Of a stretch of 64,000 bases of DNA, positions 3-49,290 are shown piece by piece; the stretch's first letter is position 1; each line of letters begins with the position of its first letter. The DNA comes from Candidatus Heimdallarchaeota archaeon. GTDB lineage: Archaea > Asgardarchaeota > Heimdallarchaeia > JABLTI01. The stretch lies in the NCBI GenBank assembly GCA_018238155.1, contig JABCTZ010000003.1:32001-96000 (forward strand). Direction: 5' to 3'. The notes beneath the pieces were generated by a model. It had not been told where the DNA came from, did not search any database, and worked only from the letters and a program-made list of their open reading frames with translations. The position numbers were made by a program, and so were the translations under genes.

Positions 3-1820
3 TTTTGGGCGATTGGCGATCGAAAAGAGAGATTTTCACTGAATCTTCCTCCAAGATATTTATCAACTGAATTATCTATGACTGAAGATTATGATTTTCA
101 ATTCATAGCAAATTTATTCATGCACAAATCTTTATCGGAGAATATAATTGAAAAACAATTAAATAAAACACTAGAAGCTCTCCGGAATTCCGTTGAAAGC
201 TATTCAAAAGAAAATTCATTGGTTATTATTCAACCCACAAAGTCAGAACGAATCTTTGAAAAGATTTTGAATGAGCTAAATGATCTTGGATTACAAAATA
301 TAGCGATAACTAATCTTTTACCAATGATCAATAATTCTCGCCAGATGATTGATTTTATTGCTAATTTAAAAATAGCGCTTCCTTTTAACAGTTTATTATT
401 TCTATTATCTCCAATACCTCATACTCATATGCCAATATTGGCTTATTCTGGGATAGATGTTTTTTCGAATGGTTTTGCAAATATCGCCGCGAAACAGCGT
501 TTATATTTAACTGATGCCGGTGGAAATAAGTTAGAAGATTTGAATGAATTAACTTGTTTTTGTGAAATGTGTTCAAAGCATACAGAACCAGAAGATTTCA
601 TTTCATCAATTACTAAATCCAAAGTTGGTGAACTTTATCCACTCATAATACACAATGAACTGATATTTGAAAAGAAAATACGCGAAATTCGTTCTGCAGT
701 AAAAAAACAAAATCTAAGAGGATATGTTGAACAAGCAATACAAATTAATCCCTTTAGTGCAGGTGCTTTAAGACTATTAGATAAAGAATGGTCTGATTGG
801 TTAATTGCAAGAACACCAACTTGGTCAAATGTGCCAATAAAAAGCATTACTTCATATGGTTTTACTCGTCCCTCAATTAGTGAATTTCAAAGAAGAATTC
901 ATGAACGATTTATCATACCAAGTTCAAAAAAAGTTATAGTTATTTTACCTTGCTCAGCTAGAAAACCATATTCTCAATCAAAAAGCCATCAGAAATTTAA
1001 TACTGCAATCAGTAGTATAGCCAACAACAAGAAGGGCTACATTCAGGAGTTAATCTTAACTTCCCCATTAGGAGTAATACCTCGAGAACTAGAATCAGTG
1101 TATCCTGCCGCACATTATGATATTCCTGTTACAGGTGATTGGTCATATGAGGAGAAGCAAATTGCAATAGATCAACTTGTGGGTGTTTTATCCGATATTG
1201 AATCTGATGTGACTATCATAGCACACATAGCCGGAGAATATATCGAATTATGTCAAGAAACAGAAAAAATCCTGGAACGATCATTTATTTACACCTCTAA
1301 AAATTCACGAGCTACTACAGCTACTTCCTTAGATAGTTTAACAAAAGAAATCAATAAAGTAGTTGAATCACTTCCCACGATGAAGTTCTCAGCTGACACA
1401 AATAAAATACGAAAAATAGCTGATTATCAATTTGGGTTAAGTGTTGGAGAAGCAATGTTTCCTGAGGTTTATTCTCTAAAGGGCAGACCTCCATTACCAT
1501 TTAAAATTCTGAGACAAAATCAACAACATGGCGTGATACATTATACTACCGGAAAGTTAACTCTTTCAATGAAAAACGGTGGAATACTGGCTAAAAAGAA
1601 AAAATACTTTGTTATGTTTGATGGGGAGAAACTTGAAGGATCAACTCTCTTTGCAGTTGGTGTCAAGAAAGCAGACCCTGAAATAAGACCATCAGATGAA
1701 GTAGTTATTGTGGATAAAAATTATACTCTCCTTGCTGTCGGTCATGCTCTCATATCTGGACGAGATATGGAAACAGTAAAATTTGGTGCAGTTGCCAAAA
1801 TTAAAAACAAAGTCAAATAA
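3..1820 (+). CDS. arcS: Archaeosine synthase subunit alpha (ArcS/TgtA2) with C-terminal PUA domain; 5'-truncated by the window edge
   Basis: Motifs LPCSARKPYSQSKSH and TSPLGVIPRELESVYPAAHYDIPVTGDW; PUA-like C-terminus (GSTLFAVGVKKADPEIRPSDEVV). The frame is open from position 3 to the listed ATG at 78. Confidence 0.9.
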   Translation, partial: FWAIGDRKERFSLNLPPRYLSTELSMTEDYDFQFIANLFMHKSLSENIIEKQLNKTLEALRNSVESYSKENSLVIIQPTKSERIFEKILNELNDLGLQNIAITNLLPMINNSRQMIDFIANLKIALPFNSLLFLLSPIPHTHMPILAYSGIDVFSNGFANIAAKQRLYLTDAGGNKLEDLNELTCFCEMCSKHTEPEDFISSITKSKVGELYPLIIHNELIFEKKIREIRSAVKKQNLRGYVEQAIQINPFSAGALRLLDKEWSDWLIARTPTWSNVPIKSITSYGFTRPSISEFQRRIHERFIIPSSKKVIVILPCSARKPYSQSKSHQKFNTAISSIANNKKGYIQELILTSPLGVIPRELESVYPAAHYDIPVTGDWSYEEKQIAIDQLVGVLSDIESDVTIIAHIAGEYIELCQETEKILERSFIYTSKNSRATTATSLDSLTKEINKVVESLPTMKFSADTNKIRKIADYQFGLSVGEAMFPEVYSLKGRPPLPFKILRQNQQHGVIHYTTGKLTLSMKNGGILAKKKKYFVMFDGEKLEGSTLFAVGVKKADPEIRPSDEVVIVDKNYTLLAVGHALISGRDMETVKFGAVAKIKNKVK

Positions 1821-47266: not shown

Positions 47267-47821
47267 ATGGGTTATATTGAACGTTCATTCGGTCGCGGAA
47301 ACCTCTGGACCTTATCATTTGGTATAGGCTTCCTAATTTGGGGTATAATTGCAGTAAGATTTCCAAATACTCCTGGAAGTTATTGGATGTTTATTCCAGG
47401 TGGAATACTTCTAATTGTGAGCATTTCTAATATTCTCAGTTATCGCTATAATCGCGAGAAAGTATTGGGTGCATTAAAATCTTACCAGAGAGTGCAGTTG
47501 AATCAGCTTAGTGAAGAATTACGGATGAAAAAACGTGATTTAAAAGAGATGATTGTTGATTTACGAGCAGAAGGAAAACTTAAAGCTTCGTTTGATCCTG
47601 AAAGCGGTGAGGTAGTGGTGTTTGAAGTAAAAGGACAACCACCAATTGGAGTAGCAACTCCACCACCTGTAAATACCAGTAAGAAAATGAGTGAACTTGA
47701 AGGTATAGAGATTACTCCAGTTATGCAGAATATACAAGATCAAGGTTATTGTCCATATTGTGGTTCAAGGGCCACTTCCAAGGATAAATTCTGTGTTACT
47801 TGTGGCTCAGCATTACAATAA
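47267..47821 (+). CDS. Membrane protein with a PCI-like winged helix and C-terminal Zn-ribbon
   Basis: Two TM segments; YQRVQLNQLSEEL...MIVDLRAEGKLKASFDPESGEVVV; CPYCG...FCVTCG. Confidence 0.72.
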   Translation: MGYIERSFGRGNLWTLSFGIGFLIWGIIAVRFPNTPGSYWMFIPGGILLIVSISNILSYRYNREKVLGALKSYQRVQLNQLSEELRMKKRDLKEMIVDLRAEGKLKASFDPESGEVVVFEVKGQPPIGVATPPPVNTSKKMSELEGIEITPVMQNIQDQGYCPYCGSRATSKDKFCVTCGSALQ

Positions 47822-47940
47822 ATGAAAGAAATCTAACAATGGACAAGTCACTTTGCCTTGTCATTTTCTATTTTTAAGCAAGCTTTTTTATTCTGAACAT
47901 CTGCATACAGTACATGATGATAGAATATGCCTTCTAGAGA

Positions 47941-48195
47941 GTTGGTGATAGTTAGAACATTCTTGCGATGATCACCAAAGCAAGGGGAGGCGCACACTGG
48001 ATTCGCACGAGAGCATAGAATTGACTATCGACGATTTTAAACGGCTCTTTTCCTAGCTTATGCATGTTGCTTTGCGATGAGGAAAAAGTCAACCCAAGTC
48101 GCCCACACAATCGAGCTGCTTTCATCCCGAAGAAATGACTACTACTCCCACCTCGAGAGACCACGGTTGAGGAAGAATAATTCTAGTCGGTGATA
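47941..48195 (-). ncRNA. Candidate structured non-coding element of unknown class
   Basis: 112/240 G+C (hand count, 47941-48180) in an AT-rich genome; terminal stem and two long arms that pair better on the minus strand (G-U pairs); no credible ORF. Confidence 0.45.
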
Positions 48196-48552
48196 CAAGT
48201 GTGTTAGTGTGTTGGGGGACATTGTTTCTTCATTAATTATTAAATCAAAAGAATTTATTGATGGAAATAAAATCTCAGGAGAACTTTATACTTTTATTAA
48301 AAAAGAGCCAGAGCCCACAACACCACCTCTAACAGAAATTTCTCTAAACCTGTCTGCGACTTCCACAATAATCTCAATTTGCTATTTGATTTTCTTCTCT
48401 CTAAAAATAAATACTATATATAAAAGAAGAACGTAAGCACACTATATAACAAGTCACCTCTAAAAATTCCTTTAAACACTATATTGTTGAAAGATTAGAA
48501 ACGGTTTTAAAGTAGGTTATTTTATGATTATATAATATCAGAAGATAGTTAG

Positions 48553-49290
48553 TTGATGTTAATGTCTTGGTGGCGCAATTTTAAATTAAGAACAAGAGGC
48601 GGATACAAAAAGATAATGCTTCCATTTGGTCGATTTATTGGGAAAATGGGCATATCTCCAAATGCTATATCAATGATTTCTGCAGTGTTTGCAATTGCAT
48701 CTGCTACTATGTATGCATTCAATGGCAGAGTGGGTACATTCGAGTATTGGTGGGCAATTGGTTTTCCATTAATGTTCATCGCCGGAATGCTCGATGTAGT
48801 AGATGGTTCTGTTGCAAGAGCAATGGGTAAGACAACTAAATTTGGTCAAGTATTAGATCCAGTAATGGATAGATTCGTTGAATTTTGTTACCTGATTGGA
48901 ATTGCTATTGGAATTTATACCTTCGAACCTCTCGAGACTCTTTGGCCAGGAATCGCAACAATTTCAGTAGCAGCATGGTGCTTTTTCTCCTTTGCAGGAA
49001 TGATCTTTGCGAGTTACTCTCGAGCACGAGGCGAAAGTGTTGCCCAGATGAGCGTTGAAAGTGTAGGAATTATGGAGCGCAGAGAAAAGATACTTATTCT
49101 GATGCTTGGTAACATACTTTTCATCTGGTGGCCCGTAGCATTACCCATTGGAATAATATTGGTAGGTTTCTTATCATTTATAACAACCATTCAAAGAATG
49201 TTCTTTATACGCAAACTAATGATTGAAATTGGGAATGAAGTTAAAATACAAGAACCAGAAGAAGATATTGAAAAGGAACCAGAAGAGTAA
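48553..49290 (+). CDS. CDP-alcohol phosphatidyltransferase (archaetidylinositol-phosphate synthase-like)
   Basis: SPNAIS; DVVDGSVARAMGKTTKFGQVLDPVMDR signature; SYSRARGE; GIMERRE. Confidence 0.92.
   Translation: MMLMSWWRNFKLRTRGGYKKIMLPFGRFIGKMGISPNAISMISAVFAIASATMYAFNGRVGTFEYWWAIGFPLMFIAGMLDVVDGSVARAMGKTTKFGQVLDPVMDRFVEFCYLIGIAIGIYTFEPLETLWPGIATISVAAWCFFSFAGMIFASYSRARGESVAQMSVESVGIMERREKILILMLGNILFIWWPVALPIGIILVGFLSFITTIQRMFFIRKLMIEIGNEVKIQEPEEDIEKEPEE

What the first reader, a model, noticed from the sequence alone, without database searches (positions are those of the whole stretch)
47941..48195. Unannotated GC-rich structured element (~240 nt) with a closing stem, two arms and a possible pseudoknot
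Seen: 112 G+C in 240 nt by hand count (about 47%), clearly above the flanks. On the minus strand, 48173-48185 pairs with 47953-47964 (closing stem). Arm A pairs 48165-48170 with 48089-48094 and 48152-48156 with 48111-48115, and is capped by a UCAUUU-CUUCG-GGAUGA hairpin (48122-48138). Arm B pairs 48067-48078 with 47971-47983. An alternative 9-bp pairing of 48087-48095 with 48018-48026 crosses arm B and competes with arm A, suggesting a pseudoknot or switch. G-U pairs favour the minus strand. I could not match canonical SRP or RNase P signatures. Inference: a novel or highly diverged ncRNA.
Basis: partly seen in the sequence, partly recalled or inferred. Interest (0 to 1): 0.7.

Follow-up and report, generated by a model that had tools for sequence, protein, structure and literature searches.

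The report
Three-hairpin H/ACA guide RNA gene
The GC-rich intergenic element is a real, conserved gene for a roughly 320-nt RNA on the plus strand. It is best read as an Asgard (Heimdall-group) version of the known archaeal three-hairpin H/ACA guide RNA that directs pseudouridine formation in 23S rRNA, so it is an ordinary kind of RNA in a new lineage.

Summary
The element is real but misread. It lies on the plus strand at about 47913-48232, not on the minus strand, and folds into three hairpins rather than a closed two-arm fold with a pseudoknot.

- **Conservation:** It is single-copy and present in 10 of the 11 other species genomes of its family, 72-93% identical by DNA.
- **Structure:** 95% of cells pair, and 21 pairs show changes on both sides (0 of 500 shuffles reach this).
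- **Wider spread:** The middle hairpin occurs once per genome in three families of the class and nowhere else among 400 Asgard genomes.
- **H/ACA anatomy:** Each hairpin has a lower stem, an invariant internal loop, a K-turn-type GA motif and an ACA/ANA box 14-15 nt downstream.
- **Predicted targets:** These are 23S U2496, U2554 (A loop) and, more weakly, U1917 (helix 69), in E. coli numbering. All correspond to known pseudouridine sites.
- **Precedent:** The first and third are the targets of motifs 1 and 3 of the Afu4/Pf7/Pab40 three-motif H/ACA sRNA.
- **Expression:** Short metatranscriptome contigs cover only this stretch.
- **Not RNase P or SRP:** Both lie elsewhere in the genome.
- **No Rfam match,** including HgcG.

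The scan reached the same reading before on a related genome (e1-5383152). Verdict: a new member of a known kind.

The parts
47883..47892 (+). A/T-rich TATA-like box about 25 nt upstream of the conserved start of the RNA (inferred promoter)
   Evidence: The sequence is CTTTTTTATT. In the alignment it sits opposite ATTAATAG-type boxes of the other genomes of the family. The family-f2 homologues carry TATA-like boxes at the same distance. No transcription start site was mapped.
47913..48232 (+). The whole ncRNA gene, about 320 nt. The ends are approximate (within about 5 nt at the 5' end, and possibly a few nt further at the 3' end).
   Evidence: Conserved at 72-93% DNA identity in the 10 other family-f1 genomes that hold it. 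The covariance model R1 scores 290-375 bits in them and finds one copy per genome. Pairing is 95.3%, with 21 pairs changed on both sides. The G-U strand test favours the plus strand. Metatranscriptome contigs of 190-241 nt lie wholly inside 47929-48215.
47916..48004 (+). Outer stem of hairpin 1. GAUGAUAG (47916-47923) pairs with CUGGAUUC (47997-48004) across a tandem-GA internal loop. The 5' strand carries a C-box-like AUGAUGA.
   Evidence: Helices 1-2 (columns 5-6/96-97 and 11-12/90-91). One of these pairs occurs as AU, GU and GC. The only Rfam signals are weak C/D-box hits to the AUGAUGA.
47929..47996 (+). Hairpin 1 (D1), with these parts:
- Lower stem: GCCUUCU / GGGGAGGC.
- 5' pocket strand: 47934-47941.
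- Upper stem: UUGGUGAU / AUCACCAA.
- K-turn-like motif: UA at 47949-47950 opposite GC-GAU-GA at 47965-47971.
- 3' guide: GCAAG at 47980-47984.
- ACA box: 47994-47996, 14 nt after the guide start.
   Evidence: The upper stem covaries: GGUGAU/AUCACC against GACGGU/ACCGUC. The predicted target is the 23S U in GGCUUGC[U]ACCUCGAUG, which is E. coli 2496. Pairing is 5+4 bp in most of f1 and 5+3 in this window. It is 4+6 to 4+8 bp in families f2 and f3. The ANA box lies mostly 14 nt downstream (range 13-15).
48009..48123 (+). Outer stems enclosing hairpin 2 and its ACA box: GAGAGC (48009-48014) with GCUUUC (48118-48123), and AAUUG with CAAUC.
   Evidence: Helices 6-7. Helix 6 is 100% paired with changes on one side only. 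Helix 7 is 86% paired with one pair changed on both sides.
48030..48107 (+). Hairpin 2 (D2), with these parts:
- Lower stem: GACGAUUU / AAGUCGC.
- 5' guide: CGGC at 48042-48045.
- Upper stem: UUUUCC / GGAAAA.
- K-turn-like motif: UA at 48054-48055 opposite GC-GAU-GA at 48074-48080.
- Invariant 3' guide: CAACCC at 48090-48095.
- ACA box: 48105-48107, 15 nt after the guide start.
   Evidence: The motif GGCTC..TGA..GTCAACCC..CAAYA occurs once per genome in 27 of 400 Asgard genomes. All are in three families of one class, and the reversed control gives 0 hits. The lower stem differs completely between families yet stays complementary. The predicted target is the 23S A-loop U in GGGUUG[U]ACGCCC, which is E. 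coli U2554. Pairing is 6-8 bp plus 3-4 bp, with 5'-UNN-3' left unpaired.
48129..48231 (+). Outer stem enclosing hairpin 3 and its ACA box: GAAGAAAUG (48129-48137) with CAUUGUUUCUUC (48220-48231). A T-rich tract follows.
   Evidence: Helix 11: 7 pairs, 3 of them changed on both sides.
48145..48221 (+). Hairpin 3 (D3), with these parts:
- Lower stem: CUCCCA / UGGGGG.
- 5' guide: GAGAGA at 48155-48160.
- Canonical K-turn: GA at 48169-48170 opposite GGU-GA at 48189-48193.
- Apical hairpin: 48171-48188.
- 3' guide: UAGU at 48205-48208.
- ACA box: 48219-48221, 14 nt after the guide start.
   Evidence: One lower-stem pair occurs as GU, GC, AU and UA. The predicted target is the helix-69 U in GUAACUA[U]GACUCUCUU, which is E. 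coli 1917. Pairing is 4 bp plus 5-7 bp in f1 and 4 plus 4-5 in f3. No such match was found in f2. This is the weakest of the three assignments.

Best explanation
This is a gene for a box H/ACA pseudouridylation guide sRNA with three hairpins. It is transcribed from the plus strand, inferred from an A/T-rich promoter box at about 47883-47892, to give an RNA of about 320 nt.

**Anatomy shown by comparative analysis.** Each hairpin has:
- a lower stem;
- an internal loop whose two strands are invariant across genomes, while the stems covary;
- an upper stem ending in a K-turn-type GA motif, the expected L7Ae site;
- an ACA/ANA box 14-15 nt 3' of the point where the 3' loop strand starts pairing with rRNA.

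**Inferred mechanism.** The Cbf5-Nop10-Gar1-L7Ae proteins assemble on each hairpin. 23S rRNA then pairs with both loop strands, leaving one U unpaired at the base of the upper stem. Cbf5 converts that U to pseudouridine.

**Predicted targets (E. coli numbering).**
- Hairpin 1: U2496.
- Hairpin 2: U2554 in the A loop.
- Hairpin 3: U1917 in helix 69 (less certain).

The fold, the conservation and the complementarities are shown here. Protein binding and pseudouridine formation are inferred.
For: **Conservation and copy number**
- The RNA is present in 10 of the 11 other species genomes of the family at 72-93% identity and is single-copy.

**Structure**
- 95.3% of 911 cells pair, against about 40% when the partners are slid.
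- 21 pairs changed on both sides, against 9.5 +/- 2.2 in shuffles (0 of 500 reach it).

**Strand**
- There are 130 G-U cells on the plus strand against 18 on the minus strand.

**Spread of hairpin 2**
- Its motif occurs once per genome in families f1, f2 and f3 and nowhere else among 400 Asgard genomes. The reversed control gives 0 hits.
- Its stems differ between families but stay complementary. GGCUC, GUCAACCC and CAAYA stay fixed, as expected of guide and box sequences.

**Family-f2 homologues**
- They are about 230-245 nt long and keep the same three-hairpin order.
- f2 and f3 have canonical GA/GA K-turns (read from the sequences).

**Targets**
- In an unbiased scan with constraints on hairpin geometry, the two best-supported 23S sites are hairpin 1 to U2496 and hairpin 2 to U2554. 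They are supported by 14 and 13 of 25 RNAs.
- In 20 shuffled rRNAs the top site reached 14 or more in 2 of 20, and the second-best site never reached 13.
- The predicted guide start leaves an ANA box mostly 14 nt downstream for hairpin 1 (range 13-15) and 15 nt for hairpin 2, close to the 14-15 nt measured for Pyrococcus H/ACA sRNAs (PMC2377435).

**The target sites are known pseudouridine positions**
- P. abyssi Psi2588, guided by Pab40 motif 1, equals E. coli 2496. The offset of 92 follows from the paper's RluE/RluC/RluB statement.
- Yeast has Psi2865 (snR46) and Psi2923 (snR10, next to Um2921, the counterpart of E. coli Um2552) (PMC8307265).
- Pab40/Pf7/Afu4 motif 3 targets a domain-IV position modified in nearly all organisms.

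**Expression**
- Contigs from four metatranscriptome runs of three studies are 190-241 nt long and lie wholly inside 47929-48215. None lies on the flanking genes.

**Protein partners in the genome**
- Nop10 scores 61 bits.
- A TruB/Cbf5-type synthase scores 90.7 bits.
- A Gar1-like ORF scores 26.8 bits.
Against: **No profile match.** No Rfam family matches, including HgcG (RF00064), even at E up to 10 on the element alone.

**Short and statistically modest complementarities.**
- In this window the pairings are 5+3, 6+3 and 4+6 bp.
- Conserved guide sequences are shared by all homologues, so support from many genomes is not independent.
- A reversed-rRNA control without geometry constraints gave sites supported by as many RNAs.

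**K-turn distance does not fit the Pyrococcus rule.** The distance from K-turn to pocket is about 7-9 layers in hairpins 2 and 3 of this family, and 7-8 in hairpin 1. The Pyrococcus rule is 5-6 bp, unless the lowest pairs of the upper stem open on substrate binding.

**Non-canonical K-turns.** In this family the K-turns of hairpins 1 and 2 have U, not G, at the 2n position.

**Weak spots in individual hairpins.**
- Hairpin 2 needs an unpaired 5'-UNN-3'.
- Hairpin 3 has only 4 bp on the 3' guide side, and no helix-69 match was found in family f2.

**Limits of the expression evidence.** Strand, ends and level are not shown, because only assembled contigs were available.
Confidence: 0.85

Rival explanations
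1. It is a conserved K-turn-containing structured RNA that binds L7Ae and perhaps Cbf5, but does not guide pseudouridylation at the predicted sites. It could be an rRNA-folding chaperone or scaffold, or a guide for other targets.
For: - The guide complementarities are short, and the shuffle controls are only moderately convincing.
- The first target searches, which used strict junction definitions, found nothing.
- The upper stems are longer than the functional 5-6 bp reported for Pyrococcus.
- The hairpin 3 target is weak and was not found in family f2.
Against: - Two of three pockets point to known pseudouridine sites of the peptidyl-transferase region with the right ACA spacing.
- The first and third match the known targets of the three-motif family.
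- The pocket strands are invariant while all stems covary.
Confidence: 0.09
2. This is the first reader's view: a novel or highly diverged ncRNA on the minus strand, with a closing stem, two arms and a pseudoknot or switch.
For: - The listed helices can be drawn in this one sequence.
- No Rfam match was found.
Against: - Those helices show 0-2 changes on both sides each and stay paired in only 74-94% of cells across homologues.
- G-U pairs favour the plus strand, 130 cells to 18.
- Folding energy is not better than shuffles.
- The plus-strand three-hairpin fold explains the conservation pattern.
Confidence: 0.02
3. It is a cis-regulatory leader of the downstream CDP-alcohol phosphatidyltransferase-like gene (48553-49290).
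For: In most genomes of the genus the element ends about 20 nt before a short conserved stretch that, in this window, lies just upstream of the downstream gene.
Against: - In this window 248 extra bases separate the two.
- In families f2 and f3 the homologue sits in other contexts, for example before a tRNA-like sequence.
- A TATA-like box aligns between the RNA and the next gene in relatives.
- The metatranscriptome contigs stop inside the element.
Confidence: 0.02
4. It encodes a small protein: the 70-aa ORF on the minus strand, 47952-48164.
For: An ORF of 70 aa exists. Stop-free stretches of 40-106 aa occur on the minus strand of the homologues.
Against: - There is no codon periodicity of variation (35, 33 and 31 variable columns by codon position).
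- Every homologue has stops in the homologous frame.
- Indels are not multiples of three, including against the 93%-identical relative.
Confidence: 0.01

Closest known systems
Afu4 / Pf7 / Pab40 / Pho40, the three-motif archaeal box H/ACA sRNA of Archaeoglobus and Pyrococcus (PMC2377435).
   Same: - One RNA carries three consecutive H/ACA hairpins, each with a K-turn or K-loop and an ANA box.
- Motif 1 guides the 23S position equal to E. coli 2496 (P. abyssi Psi2588), as predicted here for hairpin 1.
- Motif 3 guides a domain-IV position modified in nearly all organisms, consistent with the helix-69 prediction for hairpin 3.
- The ACA-to-target distance is 14-15 nt.
   Different: - No match to RF00064 was detected at E up to 10.
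- The RNA here is longer in this family (about 320 nt), with outer stems enclosing each ACA box.
- The upper stems are 7-9 layers rather than 5-6 bp.
- Hairpin 2 is predicted to target the A-loop U2554. For motif 2, the paper reports P. abyssi 1932 for Pab40 and argues for the position equal to P. abyssi 2678 for Afu4 and Pf7. Only an older proposal for Afu4 lies in the A loop.
- The K-turns of hairpins 1 and 2 have U at position 2n in this family.
Yeast H/ACA snoRNAs snR46 (25S Psi2865) and snR10 (25S Psi2923)
   Same: The predicted target positions are the same: E. coli 2496 and 2554, with 2554 lying in the A loop next to Um2552/G2553 (PMC8307265). The mode of bipartite guide pairing is also the same.
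   Different: In eukaryotes these are separate two-hairpin snoRNAs without K-turns, bound by Nhp2 rather than L7Ae. No sequence relationship was tested or claimed.
Haloferax volcanii sR-h45, a two-stem-loop H/ACA guide for three 23S pseudouridines (abstract of PMC7075261, seen)
   Same: It is a multi-hairpin archaeal H/ACA guide acting on 23S rRNA.
   Different: It has two hairpins rather than three. Its target positions were not compared here, and the paper's main text was not read.
Archaeal RNase P RNA and SRP RNA
   Same: They have a similar size, are GC-rich in an AT-rich genome, and can carry K-turns. The stretch GAGGAAAAAGUC superficially resembles the RNase P CR-I motif.
   Different: Both are present elsewhere in this genome with strong Rfam scores. 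The GAGGAAA stretch here pairs locally within hairpin 2.

Membership tests
Box H/ACA guide RNA (archaeal type) | One or more hairpins, each with a lower stem, a large internal loop (pocket) and an upper stem | tested here: met
   There are three hairpins. Pairing is 95.3% and 21 pairs changed on both sides. Between families, the lower stems of hairpin 2 are entirely different sequences that stay complementary.
Box H/ACA guide RNA (archaeal type) | An ACA/ANA trinucleotide 3' of the lower stem, 14-15 nt from the target-adjacent guide nucleotide | tested here: met
   In the window, ACA lies at 47994-47996 (14 nt), 48105-48107 (15 nt) and 48219-48221 (14 nt). Across the three families the box is ACA, AUA or AAA. 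It lies mostly 14 nt downstream for hairpin 1 (range 13-15) and 15 nt for hairpin 2. The rule comes from PMC2377435.
Box H/ACA guide RNA (archaeal type) | A K-turn or K-loop (the L7Ae site) in the apical part, 5-6 bp above the pocket | tested here: inconclusive
   A GA on the 3' strand after a 3-nt bulge, and an A before the apical stem on the 5' strand, are invariant in all three hairpins. Families f2 and f3 and hairpin 3 have canonical GA/GA (read from the sequences). Hairpins 1 and 2 of this family have U at 2n. The spacing is 6 bp in hairpin 1 of f2, but about 7-9 layers in hairpins 2 and 3 unless the lowest pairs open.
Box H/ACA guide RNA (archaeal type) | Both pocket strands are complementary to rRNA on either side of an unpaired U-N | tested here: met
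   Hairpin 1 matches U2496 with 4-5 plus 3-8 bp. Hairpin 2 matches U2554 with 6-8 plus 3-4 bp and an unpaired UNN. Hairpin 3 matches U1917 with 4 plus 4-7 bp, in f1 and f3 only. Statistical support is moderate. Hairpin 3 on its own would be inconclusive.
Box H/ACA guide RNA (archaeal type) | Assembly with Cbf5, Nop10, Gar1 and L7Ae, and guide-dependent pseudouridine formation | not testable with these tools
   Only the presence of genes could be checked. Nop10 scores 61 bits. A TruB_N-domain ORF of 351 aa scores 90.7 bits. A Gar1-like ORF scores 26.8 bits, below the Pfam cut-off of 29.3. L7Ae was not searched.
   Run over the whole genome at E up to 10, RF00064 gives only a 10.7-bit hit elsewhere. 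It is not among the matches on the element alone.
   The hairpin 1 prediction equals P. abyssi 2588. The hairpin 3 prediction lies in helix 69, but it is weak, and the helix identity of P. abyssi 2016 is my inference. The motif 2 targets differ or are disputed.
Archaeal RNase P RNA / SRP RNA | A match to RF00373 or RF01857 | tested here: not met
   Single strong matches lie elsewhere in the genome. There is none on this element.

The most novel reading that the evidence does not exclude
The middle hairpin really does guide pseudouridylation of the A-loop U2554. In yeast that site is made by snR10 (Psi2923), and it is not among the pseudouridines reported for Pyrococcus abyssi 23S rRNA in PMC2377435.

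If so, a Heimdall-group archaeon would carry three modifications that eukaryotes also have on one RNA. Two of them are made in yeast by the separate snoRNAs snR46 and snR10.

It would do so with upper stems of 7-9 layers rather than the Pyrococcus 5-6 bp, which hints at a relaxed, more eukaryote-like RNP geometry in the closest archaeal relatives of eukaryotes.
Probability: 0.3. Interest if true: 0.45.

Novelty: new member of a known kind. Interest (0 to 1): 0.3.

Why it matters
- **Annotation.** It fills a gap: a conserved, apparently expressed RNA gene that Rfam-based pipelines miss in Heimdall-group Asgard archaea. The D2 sequence motif finds it in three families of the class, and the covariance model R1 finds it within this family.
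- **Testable predictions.** It predicts three pseudouridines in the peptidyl-transferase region and helix 69 of Asgard 23S rRNA. All three are at positions modified in eukaryotes.
- **Evolution.** This bears modestly on how much of the eukaryotic rRNA-modification pattern was already RNA-guided before eukaryotes arose.
- **Limits.** It does not reveal a new kind of RNA or mechanism.

Tried and rejected
- **RNase P or MRP-like paralogue.** GAGGAAAAAGUC and AAACGGCUC resemble the CR-I and CR-V motifs. However, they pair with each other locally in hairpin 2. The genome's own RNase P RNA has GAGGAAGGUCC. No P or MRP model hits the element.
- **Long-range pairing.** I tested pairing of the CA-rich tails of hairpins 1 and 2 with the GU-rich 3' strand of hairpin 3. 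By my reading of the alignments, the variable positions do not covary (5 of 11 fit), whereas the local lower stem does (10 of 11).
- **First target searches.** With strictly defined junctions they found no rRNA target. Targets appeared only after I used the more canonical f2 and f3 homologues and allowed 1-2 unpaired guide nucleotides at the top of the pocket.
- **Other candidate targets, rejected.**
  - 23S GUUGACU[U]GGGG, because the ACA distance would be about 18 nt.
  - SSU position 1407 in my numbering, because the pairing is almost all G-U.
  - A site in the 3' flank of the LSU gene, because it lies outside the mature rRNA.
  - U2586 for hairpin 2, because it gives 5 bp against 6-8 bp and has no 5' guide pairing.
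- **rRNA mimicry.** GACUUUAA(A)CGGCU resembles a 23S stretch in the same sense. I judged this to be chance.
- **Genome-wide search for a perfect hairpin 2 target.** None was found.
- **MAFFT alignment of hairpin 2 across families.** It misaligns the stems, so RNAalifold on it recovers only 12 pairs. I used anchor-based inspection instead.
- **Unconstrained multi-genome support counts.** They are not discriminating, because a reversed-rRNA control scores as high.
- **Metatranscriptome contigs.** They give no strand, ends or expression level. The lack of cover on the flanks is only a weak hint.
- **Simple scans.** The sigma-70 promoter and terminator scan was uninformative for an archaeon.
- **Literature.** Searches found no paper on Asgard H/ACA RNAs.
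Full report
**Setting**

The finding lies in a 730-nt gap between two plus-strand genes. Upstream is 47267-47821, a small membrane protein with a zinc ribbon. Downstream is 48553-49290, which looks like a CDP-alcohol phosphatidyltransferase.

The window is G000:C21:32001-96000 of a 4.08-Mb archaeal assembly. Record titles of the closest public contigs name Heimdall-group Asgard archaea.

**Checking the observation**

- *GC content.* The stretch is GC-richer than its surroundings: 46% in 47941-48195, against 36% and 27% in the flanks and 33.5% in the window.
- *Folding energy.* It is no better than dinucleotide shuffles on either strand (z +0.78 and +0.51).
- *Rfam.* It gives nothing at gathering thresholds on the whole window. 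On the element itself it gives only noise at E up to 10.
- *RNase P and SRP.* Both RNAs are found elsewhere in the genome with strong scores.

**Conservation**

A DNA search of 40 related genomes found the stretch 47905-48236 at 72-93% identity. It was found in 9 of the 10 other genomes of the genus and in the one genome of the sister genus. Other families gave no blastn-level match. The tenth genome of the genus, G001 (64% complete), matched only the stretch next to the downstream gene.

- The alignment has sharp borders at about 47913 and 48232.
- Its indels are not multiples of three.
- It shows obvious compensatory changes, for example GGUGAU/AUCACC against GACGGU/ACCGUC.
- The RNA is single-copy in the genome.

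**Structure and strand**

RNAalifold on the plus strand gives three consecutive domains with 85 pairs, 22 of them changed on both sides. Counting on the trimmed alignment gives:

| Measure | Observed | Control |
|---|---|---|
| Cells forming a standard pair | 95.3% of 911 | 39-46% when partners are slid |
| Pairs with a change on both sides | 21 | 9.5 +/- 2.2 in shuffles (0 of 500 reach it) |

In this structure 130 cells are G-U on the plus strand and only 18 would be G-U on the minus strand. The RNA therefore lies on the plus strand.

The 70-aa minus-strand ORF shows no codon periodicity. It is broken by stops in every homologue, and by frame-shifting length differences in four of them.

**Wider distribution**

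A covariance model of the whole RNA (R1) finds one copy in 10 of the 11 other genomes of the family, at 290-375 bits. It also finds weak partial hits in a second family.

A motif of the middle hairpin (GGCTC..TGA..GTCAACCC..CAAYA) occurs once per genome in 27 of 400 Asgard genomes:

- All 27 are in three families of one class (f1 6/11, f2 14/31, f3 7/22).
- There are no matches to the reversed control.

The f2 homologues are about 230-245 nt long and keep the same order of three hairpins. They have a TATA-like box about 25 nt upstream and a T-rich tract downstream. Their genomic neighbours differ.

Between families the stems are entirely different sequences that stay complementary. GGCUC, GUCAACCC and the box CAAYA stay fixed.

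**What it is**

Each hairpin has the same five parts:

1. a lower stem;
2. an internal loop with invariant strands;
3. an upper stem;
4. a K-turn-type motif, with a 3-nt bulge followed by an invariant GA on the 3' strand and an invariant A before the apical stem on the 5' strand;
5. an ACA/ANA box.

The K-turn is canonical GA/GA in f2, in f3 and in hairpin 3 (read from the sequences). This is the anatomy of archaeal box H/ACA guide RNAs.

Muller et al. (PMC2377435) give the working rules for Pyrococcus:

- The ANA box lies 14-15 nt from the target U.
- The upper helix is 5-6 bp long.
- The 3' guide matters more than the 5' guide.
- An unpaired 5'-UNN-3' is tolerated.

**Targets**

My first searches used strict junctions and found nothing. 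The more canonical f2 and f3 homologues then pointed to 23S GGCUUGC[U]ACCUCGAUG for hairpin 1.

A general scan followed, over the SSU rRNA and a complete LSU rRNA of the closest relative. It used 25 RNAs from the three families. It put two sites at or near the top:

| Hairpin | 23S site | E. coli number | Pairing | ANA distance |
|---|---|---|---|---|
| 1 | GGCUUGC[U]ACCUCGAUG | 2496 | 5+4 bp in f1, 4+6 to 4+8 in f2/f3 | mostly 14 nt (13-15) |
| 2 | GGGUUG[U]ACGCCC | U2554 (A loop) | 6-8 + 3-4 bp, UNN unpaired | 15 nt |

In both cases the guide positions are homologous in all families.

With constraints on hairpin geometry, these were the two best sites in the real LSU, supported by 14 and 13 RNAs. 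In 20 shuffled rRNAs the top site reached 14 or more twice, and the second-best site never reached 13.

Without geometry constraints a reversed-rRNA control did as well. The statistics alone are therefore only moderate.

Hairpin 3 of f1 and f3 fits helix-69 GUAACUA[U]GACUCUCUU (E. coli 1917). Pairing is 4 plus 4-7 bp, with ACA at 14 nt. No such match was found in f2.

The E. coli numbers rest on my knowledge of the E. coli 23S sequence around Cm2498/m2A2503/Psi2504 and Um2552/G2553.

**Agreement with known biology**

- *Offset.* PMC2377435 states that Pab35 makes the three pseudouridines that RluE, RluC and RluB make in E. coli. This fixes an offset of 92 between P. abyssi and E. coli numbering in domain V.
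- *Hairpin 1.* P. abyssi Psi2588, guided by motif 1 of the three-motif sRNA Pab40 (Pf7, Afu4), is therefore E. coli 2496, the hairpin 1 site.
- *Hairpin 3.* Motif 3 of that RNA targets a domain-IV position modified in nearly all organisms. This is consistent with helix 69.
- *Hairpin 2.* Motif 2 targets differ between species and are disputed.
- *Yeast.* The same positions are Psi2865 (snR46) and Psi2923 (snR10, beside Um2921, the counterpart of E. coli Um2552) (PMC8307265).
- *Proteins.* The genome encodes Nop10, a TruB/Cbf5-type synthase and a Gar1-like ORF just under the Pfam cut-off.

**Expression**

Four metatranscriptome runs from three studies hold one contig each, 190-241 nt long. The runs are recorded as cold-seep metagenome or simply metagenome. 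Every contig lies entirely inside 47929-48215. None lies on the flanking genes. This fits a short, stable RNA, but it gives no strand, ends or level.

**What does not fit**

- No covariance-model match to Rfam HgcG (RF00064).
- Upper stems of about 7-9 layers in hairpins 2 and 3, unless their lowest pairs open on substrate binding.
- U instead of G at K-turn position 2n in hairpins 1 and 2 of this family.
- Short guides in this particular genome (5+3, 6+3 and 4+6 bp).

These points lower the claim that it belongs to the Pyrococcus family in the strict sense. They do not lower the claim that it works as an H/ACA guide.

**Verdict**

This is a real, conserved and probably expressed three-hairpin H/ACA guide sRNA gene on the plus strand. 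It is a new member of a known kind.

The same conclusion was reached earlier in this scan for a look-alike stretch in another genome (e1-5383152).

Noticed in passing
window 48233-48480: About 248 bases lie between the RNA gene and a short conserved stretch just upstream of the downstream gene. Relatives lack them: there the gap is about 20 nt. The segment is unique in the genome and holds only a low-complexity 75-aa ORF (48209-48436). Its origin is unexplained.
   Followed up: partly
L055 (G007:C99:38470-42544) and L056 (G005:C98:98488-102769) against L053 (G009:C95:25794-29052): The 23S rRNA genes of two congeneric genomes span 4.08 and 4.28 kb, against 3.26 kb in a third. This suggests large insertions, either introns or expansion segments.
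   Followed up: no
G000:C1:70404-71894 (SSU) and C1:134052-136836 (LSU, cut by the contig end): The 16S and 23S rRNA genes of this genome are about 62 kb apart on one contig, so they are unlinked.
   Followed up: no
L050 about 1330-1360 (minus strand) and L049 about 1735-1780: In genus g7 of family f2 a tRNA-like sequence (GGGTGAGTGGTTTAGTGGTATAACG...) lies about 100 nt downstream of the homologous H/ACA RNA. It was not confirmed with a tRNA finder.
   Followed up: no
window 47914-47923 with 47997-48004: The 5' end carries a C-box-like AUGAUGA. It pairs across a tandem-GA internal loop with the sequence after the first ACA box. Family f3 also starts with GAUGAAGG. The only Rfam signals on the element are weak C/D-box hits to this motif. 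A fused K-turn or C/D-like module, as described for Pab21, was not tested.
   Followed up: partly
G000:C10:114859-115071 (L084) and G000:C21:129960-130301 (L085): The Gar1-like ORF scores 26.8 bits, under the Pfam cut-off of 29.3. The TruB/Cbf5-type gene lies on the same contig as the RNA, about 50 kb downstream.
   Followed up: no
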